The notes beneath the pieces were generated by a model. The model made no database searches and was not told the origin of the DNA. It was given only the letters and a program-made list of their open reading frames with translations. The position numbers and the translations under genes are program-made. From Minisyncoccota bacterium (lineage in GTDB: Bacteria > Patescibacteriota > Minisyncoccia > Phycocordibacterales > UBA2100), in the NCBI GenBank assembly GCA_035708165.1, contig DASSSZ010000001.1, positions 89,772 to 153,771 of the forward strand: a stretch of DNA of 64,000 bases, read 5' to 3'. Each line of letters starts with the position of its first letter. Within the stretch, counting starts at the first letter, position 1. Below are positions 3,919 to 62,432 of the stretch, piece after piece.

Positions 3919-4695
3919 ATGTCCTCGTTCTATACGCCGGACCGCGATCCCCGATGGAACTATGGCGGAGCAAAATGGAGGCTCTCCCGCTCGAAGATCG
4001 AGCTTTTCCTCGAATGCCCGCGCTGCTTCTGGCTTGATAACAAGCTCGGCACGGCACGCCCGAGGGGCCCGGGATTCACGCTCAACATCGCGGTCGACGC
4101 GCTTCTCAAGAAGGAGTTCGATGCGTACCGCGCGAAGGGGACCGCACATCCCCTGATGGCGCGCTACGGCATCGCTGCCGTGCCCTTCCGGCATGCGGAC
4201 CTGGATCGCTGGCGCGAAAATTTCGAAGGGATCGAGTACCGGCATCCGGCGAGCGGCCTCCTGGCCTGCGGCGCTGTCGATGATGTATGGATCGATCCGG
4301 CAGGCGAACTCATCGTGGTCGATTACAAGGCGACATCAAAGGACGGTGACATCAAGGCCCTGGAGGACTCGCCCTGGGCAGCCCAGTATCGCCGGCAGCT
4401 CGGCGTCTACCAATGGCTCTTGCAGCAGAACGGATTCACCGTCTCGAAGCGAGGGTACTTCGTGTACGCGAACGCACGCTCGGACAAGGAGGCGTTCGAC
4501 AGCAGGCTCGAATTCGATGTGACGATCGTGCCGTGCGACGGCGACACGACATGGATGGAAGCCACGCTCGTCGCCATCAGGCAGACGCTCGATTCCGATA
4601 TCATTCCGGCTGCCGGGACGAGCTGCGATTTCTGCCAATACCGGGACGCCGCTGGCAGGAAGCTCCGCTCATACGCCATGAAGGCACATGCATGA
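3919..4695 (+). CDS. PD-(D/E)XK nuclease family protein (Cas4/RecB-like, probable 4Fe-4S cluster)
   Basis: N-terminal CPRCFW Cys, C-terminal Cys triad (C...SCDFC) and a VVDYK core motif. The TATACT -10 box is 6 nt upstream of the ATG. Confidence 0.6.
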   Translation: MSSFYTPDRDPRWNYGGAKWRLSRSKIELFLECPRCFWLDNKLGTARPRGPGFTLNIAVDALLKKEFDAYRAKGTAHPLMARYGIAAVPFRHADLDRWRENFEGIEYRHPASGLLACGAVDDVWIDPAGELIVVDYKATSKDGDIKALEDSPWAAQYRRQLGVYQWLLQQNGFTVSKRGYFVYANARSDKEAFDSRLEFDVTIVPCDGDTTWMEATLVAIRQTLDSDIIPAAGTSCDFCQYRDAAGRKLRSYAMKAHA

Positions 4696-5374: not shown

Positions 5375-6052
5375 ATGGCAGGCGCGGCGGTGCGGATCGA
5401 GCCCTCATGGAAGGAAGCGCTCGCGGGAGAATTCGACCAGGGCTACTTCCGCGCACTCACCCAATTCGTACGGGAGGAGTACCAGCATGCGATCATCTAT
5501 CCTCCGCCTCGCGACATCTTCCGTGCCTTCGAGCTCGCGCCATTCGATGCGGTCAAGGTCGTGATCCTCGGGCAGGATCCGTATCACGGGCCCGGGCAGG
5601 CGAACGGGCTATGCTTCGCCGTAGGCGCGGACGCGGCGCTGCCGCCATCGCTCCAGAACATCTTCAAGGAGATCGAGTCCGATCTCGGGAAGCCGCTGCT
5701 CCATCGGACGGGCGATCTTGCGCGCTGGGCCGCGCAGGGCGTGCTCCTGCTCAACGCGACGCTGACCGTCCGCGCAAGGAGCGCCGGTTCGCACCAGGGG
5801 AAAGGCTGGGAGGAATTCACCGATGCTGCCATCAAGGCGCTCTCCGAGCGGCGCGCGCACCTGGTCTTCATCCTCTGGGGGAACTACGCGAAGAAGAAAG
5901 GCGCGCACATCGACCGCAACAAGCATCTCGTCATCGAGTCGGCGCACCCGTCGCCCTTCGCCGCACGCTACGGCTTCTTCGGCAGCAAGCCGTTCAGCAG
6001 GGCAAACGCATACCTCGAAGCCCACGGGGAGCAGGCGATCGATTGGCTCTAG
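5375..6052 (+). CDS. ung: Uracil-DNA glycosylase (family 1)
   Basis: The motifs VVILGQDPYHG, GLCFAV and LLLNATLTV, plus HPSPFAA, are Ung signatures. TATACT lies 7 nt upstream of the ATG. Confidence 0.85.
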   Translation: MAGAAVRIEPSWKEALAGEFDQGYFRALTQFVREEYQHAIIYPPPRDIFRAFELAPFDAVKVVILGQDPYHGPGQANGLCFAVGADAALPPSLQNIFKEIESDLGKPLLHRTGDLARWAAQGVLLLNATLTVRARSAGSHQGKGWEEFTDAAIKALSERRAHLVFILWGNYAKKKGAHIDRNKHLVIESAHPSPFAARYGFFGSKPFSRANAYLEAHGEQAIDWL

Positions 6053-6086
6053 GCGCGCATCACCTCAGACGTGCTACAGTACGCGG

Positions 6087-7895
6087 ATGAAGAAGACGGA
6101 CAGCAAGGCCAGGAAGGGGAGTGCGCACGGTTTCAGGACCGCATGGGACTTATCGCTTTTCTACGCGCATCCGAGCGATCCCATGATCGAGAAGGACGCG
6201 AAGCGCATCGAGCGCGCGTACGAGGCGTTCGAGAAGAAGTACCGCGGCACGAAGGAGTACCTCAAGGGCGGCGCGGCGCTGCGTGCGGCGCTCAAGGATT
6301 ACGAGAAGCTCTACGTGACGCTGGACGGCGGCAAGCCCGCGCTCTACTTCGCGTACCGCAAGGAGCTCGATGGCGCCGATAGCGCATCCGAGGCGCGCAT
6401 GCGCCAGCTCGACGACCGCTTCACCAAGGCCGGCAACCGCGTGCAGTTCTTCGAGCTCTCGCTCGGGAAGATCCCCGTAGCCCGCAAAAAAGCGATCCTC
6501 GCCGATCCCGCGCTCGCGCGCTACCGGCGCGAGCTCGCGCACATCTTCGAGACAGCCGCGCATGATCTCAGCGAGCCCGAGGAGAAGATCATGTCGCTCA
6601 AGGCTGCCACGGCGCGCGGCATGTGGGTCTCCGGCGTGGATACGGCCGTCAACAAGCAGATGGTGAAGCGCGGCAAGAAAGAGATCCCTGTCAACGAAGC
6701 CATCAATCTCATCCCGTCCATCCCGAACCAGAAGGAGCGCCATGCGCTCTGGGACAGCACCATGGACGCGCTCGATCGCGTGAGCGACTTCGCGGAAAGC
6801 GAGCTCAATGCGGTCCTGACCGATAAGAAGATCAATGACGAGCTGCGCGGCTACAAGGAGCCGTACGAGGCGACCGTGCTCGCATACGAGAACGATCCGG
6901 CCGTCGTGCGATCGCTCATCGAGACAGTGACTGGCGCATTCCCGATCAGTCAGCGGTTCTACGCGCTGAAGAAGAAGCTCGCGAAGCTTCCGGAGATGCG
7001 TTACGCCGATCGCGGCATCTCGATCGGCAAGGTCGCGAAGAAATTCTCGTTCGAGGACTCGGTCGCGATCGTGCGCGATGCGTATGCCTCGATGAACCCG
7101 GAGTATGCCGCGATCCTCGATTCCTACCTCGCGCGCGGTCAGATCGACGTCTACCCCAGGCAGGGAAAGAGCGGCGGTGCCTACTGCTCGAGCGCATTCG
7201 GCAATCCCACGCTCGTCCTGCTCAACCACGTGGACGAGCCGCGCTCGCTCATGACGATCGCGCACGAGATGGGGCATGCGATCCACGCCGAGCGCGCCAA
7301 GAGCCAGCCGCCGCTCTACCAGGGACACTCGATCTCCGTCGCCGAGACGGCGAGCACGTTCTTCGAAGGCGTCGTCTTCGAGCGGCTGCTCGAGGGCCTT
7401 TCGCCGAAGGAGCGCATGATCATGCTCCACGACCGGCTGCAGGACGAGATCGCGACGATCCAGCGGCAGATCGCGTTCTTCAATTTCGAGCTCGCGCTGC
7501 ATACGCGCGTTCGCACGGAAGGCTGGGTCCCGAAGGCGGAGATCATGCGCATGCTGAACGAGGAGTGCGCGCGCTATCTCGGGAAGGCAGTCAAGATGCA
7601 GGAGCGCGACGGGCTCTTCTTCGTCGCCGTCAGCCACTTCCGCAACCCGTTCTACGTCTACTCGTACGCGTACGGCCAGCTCATCAGCAAGGCCCTCCTC
7701 GCGCGCGTGAAGGAAGACCCTGCGTATATCATGAAGGTGGACGAATTCCTCCGCGCGGGCGACTCGAAGAAGCCTGAGCAGATCTTCAAGGACATCGGCA
7801 TCGAGGTCGGGCCTGCGCTCTTCGCCGATGGGCTCGCGGCGATGGAGCGCGATATCGCTGAGCTCGAGCGACTTGCGAAGGCCGTGAATCGATAG
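6087..7895 (+). CDS. pepF: Oligoendopeptidase F (M3 family)
   Basis: The HEMGH zinc motif and overall M3B similarity. Start chosen at MKKTDSK, 6 nt after TGCTACAGT. Confidence 0.75.
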   Translation: MKKTDSKARKGSAHGFRTAWDLSLFYAHPSDPMIEKDAKRIERAYEAFEKKYRGTKEYLKGGAALRAALKDYEKLYVTLDGGKPALYFAYRKELDGADSASEARMRQLDDRFTKAGNRVQFFELSLGKIPVARKKAILADPALARYRRELAHIFETAAHDLSEPEEKIMSLKAATARGMWVSGVDTAVNKQMVKRGKKEIPVNEAINLIPSIPNQKERHALWDSTMDALDRVSDFAESELNAVLTDKKINDELRGYKEPYEATVLAYENDPAVVRSLIETVTGAFPISQRFYALKKKLAKLPEMRYADRGISIGKVAKKFSFEDSVAIVRDAYASMNPEYAAILDSYLARGQIDVYPRQGKSGGAYCSSAFGNPTLVLLNHVDEPRSLMTIAHEMGHAIHAERAKSQPPLYQGHSISVAETASTFFEGVVFERLLEGLSPKERMIMLHDRLQDEIATIQRQIAFFNFELALHTRVRTEGWVPKAEIMRMLNEECARYLGKAVKMQERDGLFFVAVSHFRNPFYVYSYAYGQLISKALLARVKEDPAYIMKVDEFLRAGDSKKPEQIFKDIGIEVGPALFADGLAAMERDIAELERLAKAVNR

Positions 7896-17108: not shown

Positions 17109-17510
17109 ATGGCTACTCAAGACACCACCCGTTACTTCGAAGCAGTCGGCCGCCGCAAGACGGCGAGTGCGCGCGTCCGCATCACGCCGGCCAAGAGCGA
17201 GGCGATCGTCGTCAACGACAAGGCGATCGCGGAATATTTCCCGCTCGATGAGTCCGCGAAGATCGCTCGCGAGTCGCTGACCGATGCCGGTGCCACGTTC
17301 TCCGTCTCCGTCCACGTCATGGGCGGCGGCCACAAGTCGCAGGCAGAGGCGATCCGCCTCGGCATCGCCCGCGCCCTCGTGAAGTACGACGGCGAGAAGC
17401 GCGGCCAGTTGAAGCAGGCGGGCTTCCTCAAGCGCGATGCGCGTACCAAGGAGCGCAAGAAGTTCGGGCTCCGCGGCGCCCGCCGTGCTCCGCAGTGGTC
17501 AAAGCGTTAG
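17109..17510 (+). CDS. rpsI: 30S ribosomal protein S9
   Basis: GRRKTASARVR ... GGGHKSQAEAIRLGIARAL is S9. Confidence 0.9.
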   Translation: MATQDTTRYFEAVGRRKTASARVRITPAKSEAIVVNDKAIAEYFPLDESAKIARESLTDAGATFSVSVHVMGGGHKSQAEAIRLGIARALVKYDGEKRGQLKQAGFLKRDARTKERKKFGLRGARRAPQWSKR

Positions 17511-17513
17511 AAG

Positions 17514-17545
17514 AAAGGCTCCGCAAGGAGCCTTTCTTCGTTCTG
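17514..17545 (+). terminator. Rho-independent terminator after rpsI
   Basis: AAAGGCTCC-GCAA-GGAGCCTTT followed by CTTCGTTCT. Confidence 0.7.
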
Positions 17546-17616
17546 GCCAGAGCATTGCTCATGCCGGCTGAGCGCGCTCCATGGAAGCCATGGAGCGATT
17601 TTGCTATACTCGGCCC

Positions 17617-18210
17617 ATGAGCATGAAGAAAGGCCGGGCAGATGACGAGGATGTCATCGACATCGAGGCTGGGGCAGGGACGGATCGCGACGCGGACACC
17701 GATGAGGAGGCGACCGACCTCGCCTCGGCGATGAAGAAGATCAAGAAGCTGCGCGACGAGCTTGCGAGGGCACAGGCGGAGCGTCAGGAGTACCTGGACG
17801 GCTGGCAGCGCCTGCGTGCCGACGTCGCGAACAGCAAGAAGGATGACGCCGCGCGCGCCGCGCGCGAGAAGCAGGCAGCCGAAGCCGCGCTTATCGAGGA
17901 GATCCTGCCCGCATTCGATGCGTATGACATGGCGCGCGCGGCTGCCGGCTGGCAGGCAGTGGATGCGACCTGGCGCGCGGGCATCGAGCAGATCTTCAGC
18001 CAGCTCGAGAATGCGCTCCTCGCACGCGGCGCATCGCGCTTCGGAGCAATCGGCGAGCACTTCGACCCGCACCTGCACGAGGCAGTGGCGGAAGTGTCGC
18101 CTGAGAAGAAGGAGCAGGAAGGCACGATCATCGCGGTGCTCCGGAGCGGCTGGAAGCTGGGCGACACCGTACTGCGCCCCGCGCACGTGACCGTCGCGCA
18201 CGCGGAGTAG
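17617..18210 (+). CDS. grpE: Nucleotide exchange factor GrpE
   Basis: Coiled-coil N-terminus with the C-terminal GrpE fold (EILPAFD...GTIIAVLRSGWKLGDTVLRPA). TGCTATACT is 6 nt upstream of this ATG. Confidence 0.85.
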   Translation: MSMKKGRADDEDVIDIEAGAGTDRDADTDEEATDLASAMKKIKKLRDELARAQAERQEYLDGWQRLRADVANSKKDDAARAAREKQAAEAALIEEILPAFDAYDMARAAAGWQAVDATWRAGIEQIFSQLENALLARGASRFGAIGEHFDPHLHEAVAEVSPEKKEQEGTIIAVLRSGWKLGDTVLRPAHVTVAHAE

Positions 18211-18313
18211 CCCGCGTGGGCAGGGCGCGCCTGCAGGATATCCGCAGCCACCTGGGGCCGCGGACAGGCCGGCGTCGCGAACACTGCCGCTCAGCCCCGC
18301 CGCTTTGCGTTCA

Positions 18314-18351
18314 TGCTCCTGTAATCTTTACAGCTGTAAGATTTACAGGAG
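18314..18351. promoter_or_regulatory. 38-bp near-perfect palindrome (putative operator, copy 1) overlapping the -35 region of the PaaX-like gene
   Basis: GCTCCTGTAATCTTTACAG|CTGTAAGATTTACAGGAGC, AT-rich in a GC-rich genome. A TATAGT -10 box lies 12 nt downstream. Confidence 0.6.
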
Positions 18352-18418
18352 CAGCGAGGGCGGCTATAGTAATGGGACATACGAGAGAGGCGGCAGCACG
18401 CCTGAAGGGAATGACGGT

Positions 18419-19027
18419 ATGGCAAAGACGCAATTCAAAGGCATCAAGACCCTCGCCGAGTACAGGCGCGGCGAGCTGACGAAGGACATCCTCCGGCTCG
18501 TAGGGGCAGGCGTGAAGCTGGGTGCGATCGTCACCGCACCTAATCTCGCCCAGGTCATCGACTATCTCGACCCGAAAGGGCGGAACGAACGGAACCGCAT
18601 CTGGAAAGCGATCAAGTACCTGGAGAGCAAGGAACGGGTGCGCATCGTCGAGAAGGACGGTACGCAGATCCTCATCCTGACGCACCAAGGCAAGCAGAAG
18701 CTCGATGAGGTGATGATCTGGGAACTCGAGATCAGGCCGCCGCGCCGGTGGGATAAGAAGTGGCGCCTCGTCATGTTCGACTTCCCGGAGCACCGCACCA
18801 CTGCGCACCAGTCGTTCCGGCAGCGCCTGCTCGAGCTCGGCTTCCAGATGTACCAGCAATCCGTGCTCATCTACCCGCACGAGTGCCGCGACGAGGTGCA
18901 GGCGATCGCGCACTGGTTCCACGTAGGGGATCGCGTGCGGTATGTGGTGGCGACGGAGATCAATGACGCGCGCCGCTACGCGAAGGCGTTCCATCTGCTC
19001 GAGGATCATTTGACGAACGGAACGTGA
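18419..19027 (+). CDS. PaaX-family winged-helix transcriptional regulator (short form, 202 aa)
   Basis: WDKKWRLVMFDFPE...RQRLLELGFQMYQQSVLIYP matches the PaaX middle domain WDGKWLLLL...QLIWQGFGALAPSLMASP. An N-terminal wHTH is present. An SD-like GAAGGGA lies upstream. It is positioned between grpE and dnaK. Confidence 0.6.
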   Translation: MAKTQFKGIKTLAEYRRGELTKDILRLVGAGVKLGAIVTAPNLAQVIDYLDPKGRNERNRIWKAIKYLESKERVRIVEKDGTQILILTHQGKQKLDEVMIWELEIRPPRRWDKKWRLVMFDFPEHRTTAHQSFRQRLLELGFQMYQQSVLIYPHECRDEVQAIAHWFHVGDRVRYVVATEINDARRYAKAFHLLEDHLTNGT

Positions 19028-19048
19028 GGAATACAATGAACCCGTCAC

Positions 19049-19088
19049 TGCTCCTGTAAATCATACAGCTGTAAGATTTACTGGAGCA
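19049..19088. promoter_or_regulatory. 40-bp palindrome (putative operator, copy 2) upstream of dnaK, in inverted orientation relative to copy 1
   Basis: TGCTCCTGTAAATCATACAG|CTGTAAGATTTACTGGAGCA. The flanks CATGCTCC show the two copies are mutually inverted. Confidence 0.6.
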
Positions 19089-19158
19089 TGCGAAGCGACG
19101 GTAGCGAACGCTACGGACACTACTTACGCAATCACATACCCGCTAACGAATACTCACT

Positions 19159-21042
19159 ATGGCTAAGATCCTAGGAATCGACTTGGGCACGACGAATTCC
19201 GCGATGGCGATCATAGAGCGCGGCGAGCCCGCGATCATCGAGAACGCGGAGGGCAACCGCACGACGCCGTCCATCGTCGCGATCAGCAAGACCGGCGAGC
19301 GGCTGGTCGGGGTCGCGGCCAAGCGCCAGGCGGTTACGAACCCGAAGAGCACCATCTATGGCATCAAGCGCTTCATGGGGCACCGCGCGAGCGAGGCTGC
19401 CATTCAGAAGGATAAGGGGCTCGTCCCGTACGAGATCAAGGAGGGGCCGGACGGCGGCGTGCTCGTGCACTTGGGCGATACGGACTACCGCCCTGAGGAA
19501 GTCTCTGCCATGATCCTCGGCAAGCTCAAGGCGGACGCTGAAGCGAAGCTCGGCGAGCCCATCACGGAGGCAGTCATCACCGTTCCTGCGTATTTCAATG
19601 ACAGCCAGCGCAAGGCGACCAAGGATGCCGGCAAGATCGCAGGCCTCGACGTGAAGCGCATCATCAACGAGCCGACGGCCGCTGCGCTCGCGTACGGCTT
19701 CAACAAGAAGAAAGACGAGAAGATCGCCGTCTTCGACTTCGGCGGCGGCACCTTCGACATCTCGGTCCTCGAAGTGGGCGACGACGTCATCGAGGTGAAG
19801 TCCACCGACGGCGACGCGCACATGGGCGGCCGCGATATCGACCAGGCGATCGTGGAGTGGATCATCACCGAATTCAAGAAGGATTCCGGAGTAGACGTCA
19901 GCAAGGACGCGCTCGCGCTCCAGCGCCTCGACGAAGCGGCGGAGAAGGCCAAGATCGAGCTCTCGACCACGCAGGAGACCGAGATCAACATCCCCTTCAT
20001 CACCTCGACTGCGGAGGGCCCGCAGCACCTCCTGCTGAAGTTCTCGCGCGCCAAGCTCGAGGAGATCGCGGCTCCGTTCATCGACAAGGCGCTCGAGATC
20101 ACCAAGCGCGCCGTCGAGGCATCGCCGTTCGAGAAGGGCGATATCAATGAGATCGTGCTCGTCGGGGGCCAGACTCGCATGCCGGCCATGCAGAAGCGCG
20201 TCGAGGAATTCTTCGGCAAGAAGCCGCACATGGGCGTGAACCCGGATGAAGTCGTGGCAGTCGGCGCCGCGATCCAGGGCGGCATCCTGCAGGGCGATGT
20301 CAAGGACATCCTCCTGCTCGATGTCATCCCGCTTTCGTTCGGCATCGAAACGATGGGCGGCGTCGCGACGAAGCTGATCGAGCGCAACGCCACGATCCCT
20401 ACCAGCAAATCGCAGGTCTTCTCGACCGCAGCAGACAATCAGACCAGCGTGGAGATCCATGTCGTGCAGGGCGAGCGCGCGATGGCTGCTGATAACAATT
20501 CGCTCGGCCGCTTCATGCTGGACGGCATCGCGCCGGCGCCCCGCGGCATGCCGCAGATCGAAGTCTCGTTCGATATCGATGCGAACGGCATCCTCTCGGT
20601 CAAAGCGAAGGATAAGGGGACCGGCAAGGAGCAATCCATCCGCATTGAGGCGAGCAGCGGACTCTCCGACGCCGATATCGAGCGCATGAAGCAGGATGCG
20701 GAGACGCATGCCGAAGAGGATAAGAAGAAGCATGAGGCCGCAGAGGTCAATAACGCTGCCGACCAGCTCGTCTACACCGCAGAGAAATCCCTCACGGAGC
20801 ACGGCGAGAAGGTCGGGGAAGACGTGCGGAAGGACGTCGAGGAGAAGGTCAGCGCCGTGAAGAAGGCGCGCGAAGGGTCCGACCTCGATGCCATCAAGGC
20901 CGCGACCGAAGCACTCTCCGGCAGCCTCTCGAAGATCGGCGAAGCGGTGCAGAAGGCCGCACAGCAGCAGCAGCCGGAGCAGGGGAATGCGAATGGCAAT
21001 CCGGAGAGCGCTTCCGGCGACGGCGAGCAGGGGCAGCAATAG
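19159..21042 (+). CDS. dnaK: Molecular chaperone DnaK (Hsp70)
   Basis: The [17 protein letters not shown] and VGGQTRMP motifs. 627 aa. Confidence 0.95.
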
Positions 21043-21122
21043 CCGATTCCGACCATCCGCAGGCACCGAGACGCTTCGTGCGCCTCTTTGCGTTTACCCG
21101 TATCCGGGCGGATAATGCAGCG

Positions 21123-22376
21123 ATGCAGGATCGCCTCCTTTTCGAGCGGACGATGCTCGGCAACGGCACAGCGCTCTATTCGCACGCGATGGACGCGCCG
21201 CTCTTCTCGCTCCATGTGCTGATCCCAGTCGGGAGCGTCCATTCGCACGACGGCAACTCCGGCGGCCGGCACGGCGTCACGCACTTCCTCGAGCACATGA
21301 CGTTCATGCGCTCTGAGCGCTACCCGGAGCTGCGCTCGTTCGACCGCCTCGCTGCGGAGCAGGGCGCCTTGCTCAATGCATACACCGCACCGTACTACAC
21401 GAGCATCTACGTCCAAGCGCCCGTGGCCGCTGAGCGCATGATCGTCGAAGGAATCGCGAGCATGCTGTTCCAGCCGATCTTCGACGAGGGTGATATCGCG
21501 ATCGAACGCGGCGTGGTCGGCAATGAGCGGGATCAGCGCAAGTACTTCCCGGGAACGACGGAGCTCGGGCGCTACATCGATCACGAGTGGATGCACGACG
21601 AGCACTTCACGAAAGAGCAGCTCTTCGGCAGTGATGCTGATCTAGCCGCGATGACCCCAGTGCAGCTCTCGCGCTTTCATGATAATTACTGGAACGAAAG
21701 CGTGCGCATCGTCGCCGCAGGTGGGCATGATCCGCATATCATCGCGGAGGCATTCGGGAGCACGGCAGCTCCCTCCAGCAGGCTGATGGAGCAATCGATA
21801 CCGCTCTCCTGGGGGAGGCGGGAGTACCACGAGAAGCAGTTCAGGGACCTCGATTCGCCGATCCTCTTCATCGGCGGTCTCACGTCATCCTACGATCTCA
21901 TGAGCGATCTGCGGCTCACGTTCATCTTGGGATTCCTCACGAATCCGTCGCATGGCCCGATCTACGATTGGCTGCGCAATCAGAAGGGATGGACCTACGG
22001 CGTCTCCGCAGGGTCGGAAACGGATCGGGACCGCTTCAGCTGGCTATTCCGGATGCCGCTCAATGATGTCACGGCTGTCCGCGAGATCCGCGCAGAATTC
22101 ATGGAACGCGCTCGAACGGCCCTTGCTGACGAAGCGCACATCCGCGCGCATGCAGCGCGCGAGCTGAATCGGAACGTCTTCAATTTCCAGACAGCCGATA
22201 CGCGCGCGGAGACCGCCGTCACCATGCTTACGCACACCGGGACCATCAGCTCGGAGGCGGAGCTCGTCGCGATACTCGAGTCCATGACCGCCGAATCACT
22301 CCTTGGCGCCTTCGACGAGCATTTCGCGCCAGAACGGGTCGGCGAATTCCTCGCGCTGCCGATGGCACAGGGGTAG
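21123..22376 (+). CDS. M16 family (pitrilysin/insulinase-like) zinc peptidase
   Basis: The inverted zinc motif HFLEHM (HxxEH). It lies between dnaK and dnaJ. GATAAT is 6 nt upstream. Confidence 0.7.
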
Positions 22377-22423
22377 GGGAGCGTGTCGTTGTATTCCCCC
22401 GCGAGGCTCGTATAATGCCAAGC

Positions 22424-23491
22424 ATGAAGGACTACTACCAGATCCTGGGCGTCGCGAAGAACGCCTCAGAAGAGGAGATCAAGAAGGCGTTCCGGAAGCT
22501 CGCGCACCAGTACCACCCGGACAAGCAGGGTGGCGATGAAGCCAAGTTCAAGGAGGCGAGCGAGGCGTACGCCGTCCTTTCAGACAAGAAGAAGCGGGCC
22601 GAATACGATGCCTATGGCAGGACGTTCAGCGGCAGCGGCAGTGCAGGCGCGAACCCGTTCGGGGCCGGCTTCGATTTCTCCGGCTTCGAGGGTTTCCAGC
22701 AAGGCTTCGAGGGCATGGACTTCGGCGACATCTTCAGCGATCTCTTCGGCGGCGGGCGCGGGCAGCGCCAGAAGCGCGGCCGCGACATCTCGATCGATAT
22801 CGAGCTCCCGTTCCGCGATGCGATCTTCGGCACGGAGCGCCGCGTCCTCATCACCAAGCAGGCTGTCTGCAGCACATGCAAGGGCTCCGGCGCCGCGCCT
22901 GGCAGCGAGACGGTGACCTGTTCGCTATGCACCGGCTCCGGCACCATCAAGGAGACGCGCCAATCGATCCTCGGCAGCTTCACGAGCGTCCGCGAATGCC
23001 CGGAGTGCTACGGACGCGGGACGGTTCCCGAGGTAAAGTGCCGCGATTGCGGCGGCGTAGGCGTGCGACGCGAGGAGCAGGAGATCCGCGTGCAGATTCC
23101 GGCCGGTATCCAGAACGGCGAGATGATCCGCCAGCCGCAGCAGGGCGAGGCAGTGCCGGGCGGCGCCTCGGGCGACCTCTACATCAAGATCCACGTCCAG
23201 CCGGATCGCACCTTCACGCGCGAAGGGAATAACCTTGCGATGACGCTCTCCGTGAAGCTCACGGATGCGCTCCTCGGCGCGACCTACGCTGTGGAGACGC
23301 TCGACGGCACCGAGCAAGTGAAGATCCCTGCCGGCGTCTCGCATGGCGACGTGCTGCGCATCAAGGGCAAGGGCGTGCCTGCCGCGACTGGCCGCGGCGA
23401 CCTCATGCTGCGCATCGCCGTGCCGCTCCCTAAGAAGCTCTCCCGCAAGGCGAAGCAGGCAATCGAAGAGCTCCGCGAGCAAGGCCTCTAG
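22424..23491 (+). CDS. dnaJ: Molecular chaperone DnaJ
   Basis: The J-domain KDYYQILGV...HPDK, a G/F region and four CxxCxG zinc-finger repeats. TATAAT is 7 nt upstream. Confidence 0.9.
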
Positions 23492-23562: not shown

Positions 23563-24045
23563 ATGGATTTCGGCATATTCTCGGTCGTCCCGATGGACTT
23601 CCTGATATTCTTCATCGCCTGGGTCGTGCTTTCCGTCGTGGCGCTGCAAGGCGGCCGCGGGGAAGTGCTCTCCATGATGCTGGGCGCATTCGTCGGCGTC
23701 GCCGTCTTCGATTACGCGCAGAAGGCGTTCTGGCTTTCCGGGATCATCGCGCCCTATGTCGCCGTGCCGCGTGATGCCGCCATCGGCCTCGCCATCCTCA
23801 TCATCCTCAGCTACCTCGTCATTCGCATGCTGATGCTCCCGTACGGGAGCGATCTGATCGGATCGCCATCGCAATCGGCCGTCATCGGCTTTCTCTGTAC
23901 GGCTATCATCTTCTCGATCTGGGTCGCGGCCCCATCCACGGATGCGATCTGGCACTTCGGCTCGCTGTTCCAGACGATCTTCTCGCCGATGTACGCCTTC
24001 TGGTGGATCGTCGGCTCCTTCGGCTTGCTGGCACTCTTCGGGTAG
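23563..24045 (+). CDS. CvpA-family integral membrane protein
   Basis: Four TM helices. ALQGGRGEVLSMMLGAFVGVAVFDY resembles CvpA LIRGFVREALSLVTWGCAFFVA. TATACT is 6 nt upstream. Confidence 0.55.
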   Translation: MDFGIFSVVPMDFLIFFIAWVVLSVVALQGGRGEVLSMMLGAFVGVAVFDYAQKAFWLSGIIAPYVAVPRDAAIGLAILIILSYLVIRMLMLPYGSDLIGSPSQSAVIGFLCTAIIFSIWVAAPSTDAIWHFGSLFQTIFSPMYAFWWIVGSFGLLALFG

Positions 24046-57039: not shown

Positions 57040-57129
57040 CGCTCGAGTATAGCACGAGGTCCGGACGGCATGCAGATGTGAACAGTAAATAGTTGATATT
57101 GCAACAATGAGATGCTATCCTGGCTCCGT

Positions 57130-57591
57130 ATGGCATCCGGCACTGATCCGCGGACACGGGAGCTCCTGCGTCTCATCCACCAGACCGTCTTCATGTTCGA
57201 CCGCGCAGCGGACCACCAGCTGCGCGAGCGTTCGCTCGGGACCTTCCCGCAGTTCCTGATCATGACCGCGATCGACCGCTTCCCCGGCCTGACGCAGCAG
57301 AAGATCGCGGCATTCCTCCATGTGACGCCGGCTGCGGTGAGCCGCATGCTCGATACGCTCGTCGAAGCGGGTTACGTGAGCCGTACCGATAAGCTCGGCA
57401 GCCGGCGCGCGCATGCCGTCGCTCTGACCGCCGCCGGACGGCGGCGCTTCGAGCGGATGGACGCGTTGGTCTCGAGCCAGGCGGCGATCGTGACAGCAAC
57501 GGTCCCGCGCGCGGAGCTGGAAGCGACGCTGCGCACGCTCCACGCGCTGCACGAGACGGTTGCCGAGGCATGCGTCCCGCATCACGGATAG
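57130..57591 (+). CDS. MarR-family transcriptional regulator
   Basis: The wHTH LTQQKIAAFLHVTPAAVSRMLDTLVEAGYVSR. TGCTATCCT is 8 nt upstream. An alternative start lies at 57112. Confidence 0.75.
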   Translation: MASGTDPRTRELLRLIHQTVFMFDRAADHQLRERSLGTFPQFLIMTAIDRFPGLTQQKIAAFLHVTPAAVSRMLDTLVEAGYVSRTDKLGSRRAHAVALTAAGRRRFERMDALVSSQAAIVTATVPRAELEATLRTLHALHETVAEACVPHHG

Positions 57592-57617
57592 CCTTTATAC
57601 TATAAATCACCTACTCC

Positions 57618-59246
57618 ATGGATCTCACCCGCTTCTTCGGCCGTATCACCTGGCGCACGCGCACCGTCGTCGGCGCCGTGCTCATCGTGATCGTCCTTCT
57701 CGCTGCTTTCGTCTATGCCATGCATAGCCGCGGCGATGCTGCCGCTGATACGACCGCGAACCAGACGCCGCTGGTCTCGGTCGCGTCCGTCTCTTCCCTT
57801 GCCGAGAGCGGCACCTCGTTCTCCGTCATCGGCACGGTGCAGTCGGAGACCGAGGCGAGCGTGCTCACGCAGGGCGCGGGCGAGGTCACGCACGTCTACA
57901 AGCAGCTGGGCGACAGCGTCTCGGCGGGCGCGGTCATCGCCGAGCTCGACAACGCCAGCCAGCGCGCAGCCGTCACGCAGGCGCAAGGCGCCGTCGCCGC
58001 GGCGGAAGCGAGCCTCTCGAAAGTCGAAAGCGGCGCACGCACGCAGCAGCGCACGATCGCGGAAGCGAGCGATGCCTCGGCGAAGGCCGCGGCTGGCAAC
58101 GCGGTCGCCTCGGCCTACGCCGCCATCGAGGACACCGTGACGCACACGGCCGATCCGATGTTCTCTAATCCGAACACCACGGACCCGTCGATCGCGTTCA
58201 CCAGCACCGAATCGCAGCTCGTCGTGAACGCCGAGAACGAGCGCCAGCAGCTCGCCGCGCTCCTCGCCAAGGGGCAATCGGCTGCAGACGGGCTTGGCAG
58301 CACGAGCGATTCCGCCGCGCTTCACGCCGCCATCGCAGCTGCGCAGTCGGACGTGCGGGAGACGCGCGATTTCTTTGATACCCTCATCGGCGCCCTGAAC
58401 GCAGCCGTGCCGTCGCAGTCCGTCTCGACGACGCAGATCGCGACATGGGAAGCGGGCGCGAGCACGGCACGCAGCACGCTCACCGGCACGCTCTCGGCGC
58501 TTACCTCGGCCGATGCCGCCCTCACCACGGCCGACGAGACCCTCTCGCAGACCAACGAGGGCGCGCAGCCGCAGGATACTGCCGCGGCGCAAGCGGCCGT
58601 GATGCAGGCACAAGGCGGGCTCGCCGCAGCGCAAGCTGCGCTCGAGAAGACCATCGTCCGCGCACCCATCTCCGGCACGATCAATGCCATCAGCATCACG
58701 CAGGGCGACTATGTGTCGAATTTCGAGAACGTCGTCACGATCGCGAATAATCATGCGCTCGAGATCGTCGCGAACGTGACAGAGGCGGATGCCAAGCGGC
58801 TCACCGCCGGGCAACCGGTCACCATCGACGGCTCCGCGGCAGGCACGGTCACGCGCATCGCCCCGGCGATCGATCCTTCGACGAAGTCCATCCAGGTGAA
58901 GATCGGCGTCACCGAAGGCGCCGACGCGCTCACGAACGGCGAGTCGGTCACGGTCACCTTCCCGGAGTCCGAGACGCAGGCGGCTGCGAGCCAAGGCCCT
59001 GCGACTATCCCCATCATCGCGGCGAAGATCCTTCCCACCGGGCCGGTCGTCTTCACCGTGAGCGCGGATGATACGCTCGTCGCGCATCCGATCTCGTTCG
59101 GTCCGATCCTCGGCGACCGTGTCACGGTCACCGAGGGGCTTACCCCGGATATGGCCATCGTCACGGACGCCCGCGGGCTGTTCGAAGGCGAGAAGGTCGA
59201 GGTCGCGACCGGCTCGGCGCCGGCTGCAACGACCACCGCGCAATAA
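57618..59246 (+). CDS. Efflux RND transporter periplasmic adaptor subunit (membrane fusion protein)
   Basis: N-terminal TM, long coiled-coil hairpin, then the lipoyl/beta-barrel motifs (IVRAPISGTI, VANVTEAD). Confidence 0.8.
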   Translation: MDLTRFFGRITWRTRTVVGAVLIVIVLLAAFVYAMHSRGDAAADTTANQTPLVSVASVSSLAESGTSFSVIGTVQSETEASVLTQGAGEVTHVYKQLGDSVSAGAVIAELDNASQRAAVTQAQGAVAAAEASLSKVESGARTQQRTIAEASDASAKAAAGNAVASAYAAIEDTVTHTADPMFSNPNTTDPSIAFTSTESQLVVNAENERQQLAALLAKGQSAADGLGSTSDSAALHAAIAAAQSDVRETRDFFDTLIGALNAAVPSQSVSTTQIATWEAGASTARSTLTGTLSALTSADAALTTADETLSQTNEGAQPQDTAAAQAAVMQAQGGLAAAQAALEKTIVRAPISGTINAISITQGDYVSNFENVVTIANNHALEIVANVTEADAKRLTAGQPVTIDGSAAGTVTRIAPAIDPSTKSIQVKIGVTEGADALTNGESVTVTFPESETQAAASQGPATIPIIAAKILPTGPVVFTVSADDTLVAHPISFGPILGDRVTVTEGLTPDMAIVTDARGLFEGEKVEVATGSAPAATTTAQ

Positions 59247-59249
59247 CGT

Positions 59250-62200: not shown

Positions 62201-62432
62201 GACCGTGCTCGGCATGATCCCGCTCTCGGGCTCGAGCGCCATGTGGAGCCCGCTCGCGTTCACCATCATGTTCGGCCTCTCGTTCGCGATCGTCCTCACG
62301 CTCGCGCTCATCCCGACCATCTTCTATCGCTCGGTCGTGCGGAAGCGCGCGAAGCAGGCGGGCATCTGGGAGCGCCGCCATCCGCTGCGCGCCATCGGCC
62401 GCCTCATCGCGCGCCCGTTCCGCCGCTCCTAG
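59250..62432 (+). CDS. Efflux RND transporter permease (AcrB/HAE family)
   Basis: 1060 aa with 12 TM helices and two large periplasmic loops. It directly follows the adaptor gene. Confidence 0.9.
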   Translation: MLWLWNFFLERRQFSYMLIGTLIFAGAFAVFAIPKENYPAITIPYGIVVTLLPGASAADVETLVTDKLEDQISNLSNLDTVTSQSMNGVSEITVQFDANADITTSIQDLRDAVAQAAGDLPSDATTPTVTKLNFEDQPVIVASVVSDLPQTELSALGTKVSDQLKALSGVSKVDVTGVPDRQVSVIVSKQALAQHGLSLSDVTQAIAGSNTALPAGTITMDGVNYDVNFKGGLTDPAELQDVTVGTSGGAPIYLRDIALISDGLAPASTYSRVSIAGEPSNQAITFDVYKQSGASIQGVADEARQELAALQEDGGLLAGAKVFVAPSTDQGAQVSQSLGDLTKTGFETVLLVLLMLFLTIGWRESIVAALSIPLSFVIAFVGLYATGNTLNFISLFALILAVGILVDSGIVVTEAIHARMRIYHDPMKAAKHALADYAWPLIAGTMVTVAVFAPLFFISGIVGQFIAGIPYTLIFVLLASIFVALGIVPLIAILFSASDRHNRLEQLQERYTDRITEWYKRMLGRLLASRRAQNWFLSGIAALFVISLFLPMTGLVQSIFFPQDDSDYVIVSIEKPQGTVLATTDLAVREVEELLYQDKEIASFQTTVGAGSALGGFGGGGMSGNEANITVNLKKPRDVTSTQEVARLQHLLAPVKDATIQVTQPSEGPSTGAPIQIELKGSNLDDLVTAADKAEALLASIPHTVNVDSSTKSTGTELDLTIDRAKAAVLGVSPLTIAQTLRTAINGTKATTINEPGQDIDVIVQLDLNSNYTSAADTADATLDAVKNIQVPTTHGTTVLLGSVLSDALAPSNATIAHKDKVRLETVSAYPDDTTTAGVIVAEFQKKAASLDLPAGVTIDYGGESEDIGTSFTQMFVALLAGFALMFMILVLAFNSFRYTFYLLMIVPLSLIGVLDGLALTGQPLSFPSMLGFIALGGVIINHAIILMDSMIRHLAASPETPIEDIVIDSAATRLRPIALTTIATVLGMIPLSGSSAMWSPLAFTIMFGLSFAIVLTLALIPTIFYRSVVRKRAKQAGIWERRHPLRAIGRLIARPFRRS

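What the first reader, a model, noticed from the sequence alone, without database searches (positions are those of the whole stretch)
18300..19160. PaaX-family regulator bracketed by two inverted AT-rich 40-bp palindromes inside the grpE-dnaK locus: candidate novel heat-shock repressor/operator replacing HrcA/HspR
Seen in sequence: a 202-aa wHTH protein sits between grpE and dnaK. Its middle domain (WDKKWRLVMFDFPE...LGFQMYQQSVLIYP) aligns with the PaaX signature WDGKWLLLL...WQGFGALAPSLMASP. No hrcA or hspR gene, no CIRCE (TTAGCACTC-N9-GAGTGCTAA) and no HAIR element is present anywhere in the heat-shock cluster. A ~44-bp element of form CATGCTCC(T/A)GTAAATCTTACAGCTGTAAGATTTACAGGAGCAG occurs twice, in mutually inverted orientation. 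Copy 1 (18314-18351) overlaps the -35 region of the regulator's own TATAGT promoter. Copy 2 (19049-19088) lies upstream of dnaK. Each copy is itself a near-perfect palindrome with 20-bp half-sites (TGTAA...TTACA), as expected for a dimeric wHTH operator. Both copies are strikingly AT-rich in a 67%-GC genome. This regulator gene, unlike most neighbours, has a leader with an SD. Inference: this is an autoregulated repressor (or activator) controlling dnaK-M16 peptidase-dnaJ and itself, a heat-shock control circuit not matching any described family (HrcA/CIRCE, HspR/HAIR, CtsR, RheA, sigma32).
Basis: partly seen in the sequence, partly recalled or inferred. Interest (0 to 1): 0.75.

Follow-up and report, generated by a model that had tools for sequence, protein, structure and literature searches.

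The report
Palindrome-bracketed PaaX-like regulator beside dnaK
In an uncultivated candidate-phyla-radiation (CPR) bacterium, a small DNA-binding protein gene sits just upstream of the chaperone gene dnaK and is flanked by two copies of a conserved 40-bp palindrome that overlap its own promoter and the dnaK promoter, so it is probably a previously undescribed repressor of dnaK, although the same palindrome also turns up at unrelated places.

Summary
Gene X (18419-19027, 202 aa) is a winged-helix plus Cas2-like (PaaX_M) protein that lacks the PaaX C-terminal domain. Two 38-40-bp palindromes (18314-18353, 19049-19088) bracket it and are the only copies in 64 kb. In all 14 related Kaiserbacteria-like loci examined, X lies upstream of dnaK (adjacent in 13). 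In 12 of these 13 non-redundant relatives two copies of the palindrome bracket X. Copy 1 supplies the -35 (TTTACA) of the X promoter. Copy 2 begins 6-12 nt after the -10 of a conserved TTGACN-16-TAnnnT promoter that reads into dnaK. This fits an autoregulated repressor of dnaK, analogous in logic to HspR or HrcA but from another protein family.

Three results go against a simple heat-shock regulon. The palindrome is absent upstream of groES in one genome shown to carry the palindrome. Eleven of 16 metagenomic loci carrying it are elsewhere: lemA-htpX twice, otherwise unrelated genes, and once in frame inside a mutY-like gene. A 33%-identical paralogue that is not next to dnaK is bracketed by its own, different palindrome with similar spacing. 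Bracketing is therefore probably a family trait. A REP-like mobile-element reading is not excluded.

The parts
17581..18210 (+). grpE. The likely true start is ATG 17618, directly after a TATACT -10 box.
   Evidence: Pfam GrpE, E = 1.9e-32. Sequence read. grpE lies upstream of X in most relatives.
18314..18353 (.). Palindrome copy 1 (c1), the putative autoregulatory operator. Its right arm contains the -35 hexamer of the X promoter.
   Evidence: The orthologous copy ends 24-25 nt before the X start codon in 7 of the 13 related loci.
18342..18370 (+). Predicted X promoter: -35 TTTACA (18342-18347), 17-nt spacer, -10 TATAGT (18365-18370).
   Evidence: Promoter scan. The same TTTACA-17-(TGn)TAnnnT arrangement was read by eye in relatives. 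The strict scan confirms it in the window and in only 3 of the 11 relatives tested.
18419..19027 (+). Gene X: 202-aa winged-helix (about residues 19-87) plus Cas2-like/PaaX_M domain (115-178). It has no PaaX C-terminal domain.
   Evidence: Pfam PF20803, 66.8 bits. TIGR02277 scores 29.6 against a cutoff of 264.6, and TIGR01573 cas2 scores 29.8 against 24.5. AlphaFold2 model has pLDDT 86. Best Foldseek matches are PaaX 8A39 and Rv0674 3KFW, then Cas2 chains.
19010..19037 (+). Predicted dnaK promoter: -35 TTGACG (19010-19015, inside the last codons of X), 16-nt spacer, -10 TACAAT (19032-19037).
   Evidence: TTGAC(T/G)-16-TAnnnT is present upstream of copy 2 in 12 of 13 non-redundant loci. This includes one locus where the promoter is displaced 60 nt from the X stop, and this window, where the -35 is in another reading frame.
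19049..19088 (.). Palindrome copy 2 (c2), the putative dnaK operator. It covers roughly +4 to +44 of the predicted dnaK transcript.
   Evidence: It starts 6-12 nt after the -10 box in 12 loci. In L015 an extra gene separates X from dnaK and the palindrome stays next to dnaK.
19159..21042 (+). dnaK
   Evidence: Pfam HSP70, E = 6.9e-244.
21078..22376 (+). M16 peptidase gene between dnaK and dnaJ. It is present only in this genome among the loci examined.
   Evidence: Pfam Peptidase_M16 and M16_C. It is absent from L002, L003 and L027.
22415..23491 (+). dnaJ
   Evidence: Pfam DnaJ, DnaJ_C and DnaJ_CXXCXGXG.

Best explanation
X is a short PaaX-like DNA-binding protein. It consists of an N-terminal winged helix-turn-helix and a Cas2-like dimerisation domain, with no ligand-binding C-terminal domain. 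It binds the 38-40-bp palindrome that flanks its gene on both sides.

Bound at copy 1, it occludes the -35 of its own promoter, giving negative autoregulation. Bound at copy 2, it sits on the transcription start region of a strong sigma-70-type promoter whose -35 lies in the last codons of X. There it blocks transcription of dnaK-(M16 peptidase)-dnaJ.

Release of X would de-repress the chaperone operon and X itself, as in the HspR/HAIR and HrcA/CIRCE circuits. The release signal is unknown. Candidates are chaperone titration by unfolded proteins or intrinsic thermolability.

What is shown:
- The domain architecture.
- The conserved pairing of the gene with the palindromes.
- The conserved promoter/palindrome geometry.

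What is inferred:
- That X binds the palindrome.
- That the effect is repression.
- That the stimulus is heat or proteotoxic stress.
For: Protein architecture:
- Fold and family: PaaX_M at 66.8 bits. The AlphaFold2 model (pLDDT 86) shows an H-H-H-beta-hairpin winged helix followed by a beta-alpha-beta-beta-alpha-beta fold. The best structural matches are the repressor PaaX (8A39, E = 2e-5) and Rv0674.

Synteny:
- In all 14 related loci examined, X lies upstream of dnaK; it is adjacent in 13, and one gene is inserted in L015. Their X proteins are 49-63% identical to the window protein. grpE is sometimes unlinked, as in L008 and L009.

Conservation of the palindrome:
- Both copies are present in 12 of the 13 non-redundant relatives. 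Mean column conservation is 0.76 inside the palindrome against 0.39-0.43 in the flanks.

Promoter geometry:
- The dnaK promoter TTGAC(T/G)-16-TAnnnT ends 6-12 nt before copy 2 in 12 of 13 loci. This holds whether the -35 lies in the FDLL codons, in a different reading frame (this window), or 60 nt beyond the stop codon (L010).
- The -35 TTTACA of the X promoter lies inside the right arm of copy 1, 17 nt from a (TGn)TAnnnT box. In most relatives the start codon follows 6-7 nt after the -10 box.
- In L015 only the dnaK-proximal palindrome survives.

Cognate pairing of protein and site:
- The paralogue P0086 has a different recognition helix and a different bracketing palindrome.
- L007 and L008, which have ERKRIW(D/S) instead of ERNRIWK in the recognition helix, have altered outer arms.

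Against an RNA hairpin:
- Mismatches between the arms are not G-U biased. There are 9 G-U type, 19 A-C type and 52 other.

Other heat-shock controls and a second stress target:
- There is no CIRCE, HAIR or HrcA in the window.
- The palindrome lies upstream of lemA-htpX in two different genomes.
Against: - No binding or expression data exist.
- groES-groEL in a genome carrying this palindrome family (L028) has no copy.
- Of 11 non-X sites, none overlaps a core promoter. Their distance to the lemA promoter differs by about 16 bp between two genomes. Repression at those sites is therefore not explained.
- Non-X sites are mostly perfect palindromes. They share genome-specific inner bases with the X-linked sites. 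One was inserted in frame into a mutY-like gene and is absent from closer homologues. Copying is a more natural source of such sites than de novo operator evolution.
- The paralogue in L004 has a downstream copy facing a convergent gene, so copy 2 is not intrinsically an operator of a downstream gene.
- 38-40 bp is long for a single winged-helix dimer.
- Three further Paceibacteria lemA-htpX loci have no palindrome. It is unknown whether those genomes encode X.
Confidence: 0.55

Rival explanations
1. REP/RAYT-like system. The palindrome is a small dispersible repeat that is copied to new places in the genome. X is its cognate element-associated protein, a winged helix for recognition plus a Cas2-like, possibly nucleolytic, domain. 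X is bracketed by two copies in the way RAYT genes are bracketed by REPs. The overlap with the dnaK promoter would be secondary.
For: - Bracketing by inverted copies at similar spacing occurs in two subfamilies that are only 33% identical, each with its own palindrome.
- Eleven of 16 metagenomic loci with the palindrome are away from X. These copies lie 19-57 nt after stop codons, and one pair of identical loci lies between convergent genes.
- There is an in-frame insertion in a hypervariable loop of a mutY-like gene. It is shared by two relatives and absent from others that are 69-76% identical.
- Non-X copies are perfect palindromes with genome-specific inner bases.
- In the window, 8 of 10 bases of the flanks immediately adjoining the two copies also match in inverted orientation.
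- The Cas2-like domain keeps Cas2 sequence motifs. An invariant Asp follows beta-1 and the QxSV motif is present.
Against: - Copy number is low. There are two in the 64-kb window, both at X, and about one non-X site in roughly 130 kb of related sequence held here.
- X is single-copy and its position has been fixed across proteins only about 50% identical.
- It has no HUH/Y1 transposase domain or any Pfam nuclease domain other than the Cas2-like one.
- It has no PHROG family match and no relatives on viral contigs.
- The precise and conserved promoter geometry at both copies argues for selection on regulation.
- PaaX, the closest solved relative, is a repressor.
Confidence: 0.15
2. Self-contained autoregulatory or insulating cassette. 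X binds both bracketing sites only to control and insulate its own gene, by a repression loop or roadblock at the 5' and 3' ends. This would be the ancestral family architecture. dnaK is simply the next gene, and its expression is not meaningfully controlled by X.
For: - The same bracket, with spacing similar to that in the relatives, occurs in a paralogue whose downstream neighbour is convergent.
- Copy 2 begins 18-24 nt after the X stop codon in most loci.
- The family is large, with 1289 clusters at 50% identity at E <= 1e-10, and its members are nearly all 180-200 aa.
- The one distant member examined lies in a different gene neighbourhood, which suggests that members need not share a target.
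Against: - The dnaK promoter is placed so that copy 2 covers its start site in 12 of 13 loci.
- The promoter and palindrome moved together in L010.
- In L015 the copies beside X are lost but the dnaK-proximal copy is kept.
- The X-dnaK adjacency is conserved even where grpE is lost.
Confidence: 0.15
3. RNA-level element. The palindromes act as transcribed hairpins: 3' stabilisers or terminators of grpE and X, a 5' stem-loop on the dnaK mRNA, or a thermosensor. They would act independently of X binding to DNA.
For: - Both copies fold into stable hairpins (-28.2 and -22.8 kcal/mol, z about -5).
- Copy 2 is predicted to be the 5' end of the dnaK mRNA.
- All intergenic copies lie shortly after a stop codon.
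- Double changes that keep the two arms symmetric occur at several positions. Examples are GTAAAT/ATTTAC versus GTAATT/AATTAC in L022, and the two copies in L004.
Against: - Arm mismatches show no G-U preference: 9 G-U type against 19 A-C type and 52 other.
- Many X-linked copies have 4-9 mismatches in 19 pairs.
- Copy 1 lies upstream of the predicted X transcription start.
- No U-tract follows the copies in this genome. Canonical GC-rich terminators with U-tracts are used elsewhere, for example after rpsI at 17514-17543 and in L019.
- The primary sequence of the outer arms and centre is conserved across genomes far beyond what a structure alone needs.
- No Rfam family matches.
Confidence: 0.1

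Closest known systems
PaaX (E. coli phenylacetate catabolon repressor; PDB 8A39) and PaaX-like Rv0674 (3KFW)
   Same: - It has an N-terminal winged helix followed by the Cas2-like central domain (PF20803).
- These two are the best structural matches.
- PaaX is a repressor that binds a palindromic operator (established knowledge of PaaX).
   Different: - X is 202 aa against about 305-316 aa for PaaX.
- It lacks the C-terminal domain that senses the effector phenylacetyl-CoA.
- It scores 29.6 bits against the TIGR02277 cutoff of 264.6.
- The N-terminal half has no Pfam match at all.
- There are no paa genes nearby. The neighbours are grpE and dnaK.
- The Cas2-like domain keeps Cas2 motifs. From my recollection of the E. 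coli PaaX sequence, PaaX has lost them; this was not tested here.
HspR/HAIR (Streptomyces, Helicobacter, Deinococcus) and HrcA/CIRCE
   Same: - The circuit logic is the same: a regulator gene embedded in the grpE/dnaK/dnaJ cluster.
- Inverted-repeat operators overlap its own promoter and the dnaK promoter.
- An operator lies at the transcription start, as CIRCE does (established knowledge of both systems).
   Different: - The protein family is unrelated: not MerR-type and not HrcA.
- The operator sequence and size differ: a 38-40-bp continuous palindrome against 9+9 bp with a 9-bp spacer (CIRCE) or 7+7 bp with a 7-bp spacer (HAIR). Neither CIRCE nor HAIR is present.
- groESL carries no copy in the one genome shown to have the palindrome (L028).
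- The inducing signal is unknown.
REP elements and their RAYT transposase-like genes
   Same: - A single-copy gene is flanked by two inverted copies of a roughly 35-40-bp palindrome.
- The palindrome also occurs dispersed, mostly just after stop codons.
- Copies are homogeneous within a genome.
   Different: - There is no HUH/Y1 domain.
- There are only a few copies per genome rather than tens to hundreds.
- The copies at the gene are integrated into conserved promoters.
Cas2 (CRISPR adaptation)
   Same: - It has the ferredoxin-like fold.
- It carries beta-1/alpha-1 sequence motifs (TIGR01573 at 29.8 bits, and PADLOC Cas2 models at E = 4e-8).
- NCBI names the protein 'CRISPR-associated endonuclease Cas2'.
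   Different: - It is fused to a winged helix.
- No CRISPR array or Cas1 was seen in the 64 kb (Pfam scans).
- The database name is very likely a misannotation.

Membership tests
PaaX family (TIGR02277 / PF07848 + PF20803 + PF08223) | Central Cas2-like domain PaaX_M (PF20803) above the gathering score | tested here: met
   66.8 bits against a cutoff of 24, residues 109-182.
PaaX family (TIGR02277 / PF07848 + PF20803 + PF08223) | N-terminal PaaX winged-helix DNA-binding domain | tested here: inconclusive
   No Pfam hit for residues 1-114 at E <= 0.05. The AlphaFold2 model nevertheless shows a winged helix, and Foldseek aligns 188 columns with PaaX 8A39.
PaaX family (TIGR02277 / PF07848 + PF20803 + PF08223) | C-terminal effector-binding domain PaaX_C and full-length equivalog score | tested here: not met
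   The protein ends at residue 202 and has no PaaX_C hit. TIGR02277 scores 29.6 against a cutoff of 264.55.
PaaX family (TIGR02277 / PF07848 + PF20803 + PF08223) | Genomic association with paa (phenylacetate) catabolic genes | tested here: not met
   The neighbours are rpsI, grpE, dnaK, an M16 peptidase and dnaJ. No paa genes were found among the ORFs scanned.
HrcA/CIRCE | HrcA protein domains and the CIRCE element TTAGCACTC-N9-GAGTGCTAA | tested here: not met
   X has no HrcA hit. The window has no CIRCE match at up to 3 mismatches. In L028 there is none at up to 5 mismatches, including upstream of groES.
HspR/HAIR | MerR-type HTH repressor and HAIR inverted repeat CTTGAGT-N7-ACTCAAG | tested here: not met
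   There is no MerR hit. One HAIR-like match with 3 mismatches lies at 27861, which equals the chance expectation of 1.09.
HspR/HrcA-type circuit (functional analogy only) | Regulator gene inside the dnaK cluster, with its inverted-repeat operator at its own promoter and at the dnaK promoter | tested here: met
HspR/HrcA-type circuit (functional analogy only) | Heat- or chaperone-dependent release from DNA, and operators at other heat-shock genes | not testable with these tools
   There are no expression or binding data. The palindrome is absent at groES and present at lemA-htpX in two genomes.
Cas2 (CRISPR-Cas adaptation module) | Cas2 fold and sequence motif | tested here: met
   TIGR01573 scores 29.8 against 24.5, over only 36 residues. 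PADLOC Cas2_II gives E = 4e-8. Foldseek matches Cas2 chains at E about 1e-2.
Cas2 (CRISPR-Cas adaptation module) | Adjacent cas1 and a CRISPR array | tested here: not met
   There is no repeat-spacer array in the 64 kb. No Cas1 was found among the scanned ORFs, and none appears in the related loci.
REP/RAYT | Gene flanked by inverted copies of a palindromic repeat that is also dispersed in the genome | tested here: met
   However, only a few copies per genome are inferred.
REP/RAYT | HUH/Y1 transposase (IS200/IS605-like) catalytic domain | tested here: not met
   There is no such Pfam hit. No His-hydrophobic-His motif appears among the conserved columns.

The most novel reading that the evidence does not exclude
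The roughly 190-aa winged-helix plus Cas2-like proteins form a large family, mostly in CPR bacteria. The novel reading is that each member forms a self-contained cassette with its two bracketing palindromes. The palindromes can be copied to new loci, including in frame into genes. This would be a new, non-HUH counterpart of REP/RAYT systems built on a Cas2-derived domain, and one lineage would have been co-opted to gate the dnaK promoter.
Probability: 0.12. Interest if true: 0.85.

Novelty: new variant of a known kind. Interest (0 to 1): 0.62.

Why it matters
- Almost nothing is known about transcriptional control in candidate-phyla-radiation bacteria. They cannot be grown alone, and no canonical heat-shock regulator was seen at this locus.
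- A conserved, sequence-defined regulator/operator pair at dnaK gives a directly testable circuit. The protein is small, the site is a defined 40-mer, and the promoters have E. coli-like consensus.
- It would add a fourth protein family to the short list of dnaK-operon repressors.
- It corrects a widespread database name ('Cas2').
- It assigns a first functional hypothesis to a family of more than 1000 sequence clusters.
- The dispersed, perfectly symmetric copies and the family-wide bracketing raise a second question: whether a Cas2-like domain takes part in spreading palindromic repeats.

Tried and rejected
- CIRCE and HAIR searches gave nothing beyond chance.
- Rfam scans of the window and of 11 palindrome loci found only tRNAs.
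- The RNA-hairpin signature test found no excess of G-U type mismatches.
- The search for a canonical regulon found no palindrome upstream of groES in L028, L029 or L032. It also found none at lemA-htpX in three further Paceibacteria. It is unknown whether those genomes encode X, so this is uninformative about conservation.
- A scan of viral contigs for relatives of X found none. There were no PHROG matches.
- Neither the window nor any fetched locus holds a second paralogue.
- Literature searches for PaaX with dnaK/grpE, for Cas2-like PaaX, and for HrcA in Patescibacteria or CPR found nothing relevant.
- The sequence search against PDB was marginal (8A39 at E = 0.39). Only the fold search was informative.
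- The afdb50 fold library was unavailable.
An alignment query would have been better.
- I considered a nested 10-15-bp sub-palindrome inside each arm (two dimers side by side). It holds in the window and some genomes but not in others such as L022, so I dropped it.


Full report
**1. The observation**

The region was read directly. Two near-identical elements lie at 18314-18353 and 19049-19088.
- They are 88% identical as direct copies. As an inverted pair they extend to 49 nt at 86% complementarity. This is the longest inverted repeat in the whole window.
- Each is itself a palindrome with 19-20-nt arms.
- A 36-nt consensus with up to 3 mismatches matches only these two places and none of 100 shuffles. 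A looser scan allowing up to 9 mismatches in 26 specified positions still finds no third copy in 64 kb.
- The copies are 40% G+C in a window of 58-68% G+C.

Between them lies an ORF at 18419-19027 encoding 202 aa. It is flanked by grpE upstream and by dnaK, an M16 peptidase gene and dnaJ downstream. Only the start codon (18419) and the G+C figure (about 64%, not 67%) needed correction.

**2. The protein**

- Pfam gives PaaX_M, 'PaaX protein central Cas2-like domain', at 66.8 bits for residues 109-182. It gives nothing else above threshold. Residues 1-114 have no Pfam match at all.
- NCBIfam gives the PaaX equivalog far below its cutoff (29.6 against 264.6). It gives cas2 just above its cutoff, but over only 36 residues.
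- PADLOC Cas2 models also match the beta-1/alpha-1 stretch.
- An AlphaFold2 model built on 55 homologues has pLDDT 86. It shows three helices and a beta-hairpin (a winged helix, residues 19-87), a linker helix, and a beta-alpha-beta-beta-alpha-beta domain (115-178).
- The best Foldseek matches against PDB are PaaX of E. coli W (8A39, E = 2e-5, 188 columns) and the PaaX-like Rv0674 (3KFW). Cas2 chains follow for the C-terminal half, and PadR/ArsR-type winged helices for the N-terminal half.

X is therefore a truncated PaaX-like protein. It has the DNA-binding and dimerisation domains but not the effector-binding C-terminal domain.

The identical protein is in NCBI as 'CRISPR-associated endonuclease Cas2 [Candidatus Paceibacterota bacterium]'. 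No CRISPR array or cas1 is present in the window (and the Pfam scans), so that name is very likely a misannotation.

**3. Relatives and synteny**

- Homologues at 46-81% identity are all from Kaiserbacteria, Parcubacteria or Paceibacterota metagenome bins.
- In L001, L002, L003, L007, L010 and L027 the order is rpsI-grpE-X-dnaK-(small ORF)-dnaJ.
- In L008 and L009, grpE is separated or absent, but X still sits directly upstream of dnaK.
- The M16 peptidase gene between dnaK and dnaJ is peculiar to this genome.
- An exhaustive profile-free search finds 2520 clusters (at 50% identity) at E <= 1e-3 and 1289 at E <= 1e-10. Nearly all listed members are 180-200 aa. Only 7 clusters reach E <= 1e-30.
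- The dnaK-linked proteins are therefore one small branch of a large family of short PaaX-like proteins.

**4. The palindromes are conserved cognate sites**

- Twelve of the 13 non-redundant related loci have one copy upstream of X and one downstream. Only the divergent L015 lacks the copies beside X.
- The consensus is (T)GCTCCnGTAAATnnnnCAATTGnnnnATTTACnGGAGC(A). The window has CAGCTG at the centre.
- Over 24 sites from 12 genomes, mean column conservation is 0.76 inside the palindrome against 0.39 and 0.43 in the 20-nt flanks.
- Copy 1 ends 24-25 nt before the X start codon in 7 of the 13 related loci (gaps range 18-48 nt where a copy is recognisable). Copy 2 starts 18-24 nt after the X stop codon in 10 of 13.

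**5. Promoter geometry**

The consensus promoter scan of 17400-19300 finds exactly two sites against 0.4 expected. They are TTTACA-17-TATAGT at 18342-18370 and TTGACG-16-TACAAT at 19010-19037.

The X promoter:
- It takes its -35 from the right arm of copy 1.
- In relatives the same TTTACA is followed after 17 nt by (TGn)TAnnnT. In most relatives the start codon follows 6-7 nt later, so X is leaderless there.
- The strict scan confirms this promoter in the window and in 3 of the 11 relatives tested, because the -10 boxes are weak and of the extended TGn type.
- In the window a leader of about 42 nt is predicted.

The dnaK promoter:
- TTGAC(T/G)-16-TAnnnT is present in 12 of 13 non-redundant loci. 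Its -10 box ends 6-12 nt before copy 2.
- This is not a by-product of coding constraint. In most relatives the -35 lies in the codons for the C-terminal F-D-L. In the window it lies in an 8-residue C-terminal extension and in another reading frame. In L010 the whole promoter-plus-palindrome unit sits 60 nt beyond the stop codon.
- Copy 2 therefore covers about +4 to +44 of the dnaK transcript, the classical position of a repressor operator.
- In L015 an extra gene of about 270 codons separates X from dnaK. The copies next to X are gone, and the one remaining palindrome lies 53 nt upstream of dnaK.

**6. DNA site or RNA hairpin?**

- Both copies would fold as RNA (-28 and -23 kcal/mol).
- Among the 80 mismatched arm positions in 24 sites, only 9 are G-U type. 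Nineteen are A-C type and 52 are other.
- Copy 1 often has a degenerate left arm but an intact right (-35) arm.
- Copy 1 lies upstream of the predicted start of the X transcript.
- No U-tracts follow the copies here. Ordinary GC-rich terminators with U-tracts are used nearby, for example after rpsI at 17514-17543.
- Rfam has no match.
- The primary sequence is conserved far more than a structure alone would need.

I therefore prefer a protein-binding DNA site.

The recognition helix (residues 55-70, RNERNRIWKAIKYLES) is almost invariant. The two loci that have ERKRIW(D/S) instead (L007 and L008) are the ones with altered outer arms, CTCGAGTAAAT and GCTGACAAAAAT. This is suggestive but rests on only two cases.

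**7. The regulon test**

One exact-pattern scan of the metagenome collection returned 16 loci. Five are X/dnaK loci. Eleven are elsewhere.

The eleven non-X loci:
- L024 and L026 lie upstream of lemA-htpX (M48 protease). They come from two different genomes with the same local gene order (rplU, an EamA-like gene, then the palindrome) and with different inner palindrome bases.
- The others lie after lepA and before dnaG, after atpC and before a secreted 659-aa protein, after obg and before a 90-aa ORF, before a small secreted ORF and topA, and before holB-frr-rseP.
- L018 and L023, which are identical, lie between convergent genes.
- One locus is unclear.

None of these copies overlaps a recognisable core promoter. 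At lemA the palindrome centre is about 79 bp upstream of the leaderless start in one genome and about 95 bp in the other.

One copy (L014) lies in frame inside a mutY-like glycosylase gene.
- Alignment with 14 homologues shows that the roughly 20-residue segment it encodes sits in a hypervariable loop.
- The segment is shared with one relative (P0089) and absent from others that are 69-76% identical.
- In P0089's contig (L028) the copy is partly decayed. The nearby groES-groEL has neither the palindrome nor CIRCE.
- Two further Paceibacteria groES regions and three lemA-htpX regions also lack it. Whether those genomes encode X is unknown.

From the ratio of X-linked to non-X matches (6 to 11) I estimate about four non-X copies per genome. 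The roughly 130 kb of related sequence held here gives about one non-X copy per 130 kb, and this density depends on a genome size I do not know. Either way the numbers suggest a small number of non-X copies per genome, not a high-copy repeat.

**8. A family trait**

The distant paralogue P0086 (Doudnabacteria, 33% identical) lies among pentose-phosphate and sugar-metabolism genes. It is bracketed by its own, different palindrome.
- The upstream copy is ACCCATTTGTGCCATGGCACAAATAGGT and ends 22 nt before the start codon.
- The downstream copy is ACCTAAATGTGCCATGGCACATTTAGGT and starts 23 nt after the stop codon.
- The two copies have inverted asymmetric extensions.
- Its downstream neighbour is convergent, so that copy cannot be an operator for a downstream gene.
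- The two copies differ from each other at the same positions in both arms.

This ties protein and palindrome together as cognate pairs: a different recognition helix goes with a different site. It also shows that 'gene bracketed by two palindromes' predates the link to dnaK.

**9. Interpretation**

The best reading (confidence 0.55) has three parts.
- X binds its palindromes and represses its own promoter through copy 1.
- In the Kaiserbacteria-like lineage the 3' copy has been built into the dnaK promoter, so that X also represses dnaK-dnaJ.
- The logic is like HspR or HrcA, but the protein belongs to the PaaX-like family and lacks a ligand domain.

The signal is not known. Heat or unfolded-protein sensing is inferred only from the target.

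Several features are not explained by a plain operator model: the perfect symmetry of the dispersed copies, the genome-specific inner bases they share, the in-frame insertion, and the family-wide bracketing. All of these fit a REP/RAYT-like relationship between protein and repeat (0.15).

Two further rivals remain.
- The bracket serves only X's own gene (0.15).
- The palindromes act as RNA hairpins (0.10).

**10. Comparison and novelty**

- X works like HspR/HAIR or HrcA/CIRCE but is not a member of either. Their protein domains and operators were tested and not found.
- It shares two of three domains with PaaX. It fails the full-length model, the C-terminal domain and the genomic context, so it should be called PaaX-like, not PaaX.
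- It has a Cas2-like fold but is not part of a CRISPR system.
- No paper in the searched library connects these proteins with dnaK.

I rate it a new variant of a known kind of circuit. There is a modest chance (about 0.12) that the family represents something more unusual.

Noticed in passing
L004 5943-5978 and 6600-6635 (gene at 6001-6576): A Doudnabacteria paralogue of X (33% identical, not near dnaK) is bracketed by two inverted copies of a different 28-bp palindrome. The spacing from its start and stop codons is similar to that at the related dnaK-linked loci. Its downstream neighbour is convergent.
   Followed up: partly
L014 796-833; L028 10497-10534: The palindrome lies in frame inside a mutY-like adenine glycosylase gene, in a loop that varies from about 5 to about 45 residues among Kaiserbacteria homologues. 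Other homologues carry different, unexamined insertions at the same spot.
   Followed up: partly
L024 851-888; L026 1160-1197: A perfect copy of the palindrome lies between an EamA-like gene and the lemA-htpX (M48 protease) operon in two different genomes. It is upstream of the core promoter rather than on it, at distances that differ by about 16 bp.
   Followed up: partly
window 57112-62432: A MarR-family regulator gene is followed by HlyD-type membrane-fusion and AcrB-type RND pump genes. An RND efflux system is unexpected in a CPR bacterium, which is thought to lack an outer membrane.
   Followed up: no
window 21078-22376: An M16 (insulinase-like) peptidase gene is inserted between dnaK and dnaJ. 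The related loci have dnaK-dnaJ directly or with a small unrelated ORF between them.
   Followed up: partly
window 23563-24045: A 160-aa ORF with no Pfam match follows dnaJ. ORFs of 161-163 aa occupy the same position in L002, L003 and L027, so it may belong to the conserved cluster.
   Followed up: no
window 17514-17543 and 17600-17620: A canonical intrinsic terminator (GC-rich stem, GCAA loop, T-rich tail) follows rpsI. grpE then appears to be leaderless, with a TATACT box 6 nt before ATG 17618, so the 17581 start listed for the ORF is probably too long.
   Followed up: no
L008 3620-3760; L018 2230-2270: Purine-rich runs of the type GGGGA(A)AGATGGGGA follow the palindrome in the L008 dnaK leader. 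They also follow it in L018, where no gene follows.
   Followed up: no
window 19004-19027: The window's X has an 8-residue C-terminal extension (EDHLTNGT) not seen in relatives. This extension carries the -35 hexamer of the dnaK promoter, in a different reading frame from the FDLL codons that carry it elsewhere.
   Followed up: yes
window 3919-4695: A PD-(D/E)XK nuclease gene with a weak Cas4-like match (E = 0.0025) lies in the window. There are no other cas genes and no CRISPR array.
   Followed up: no
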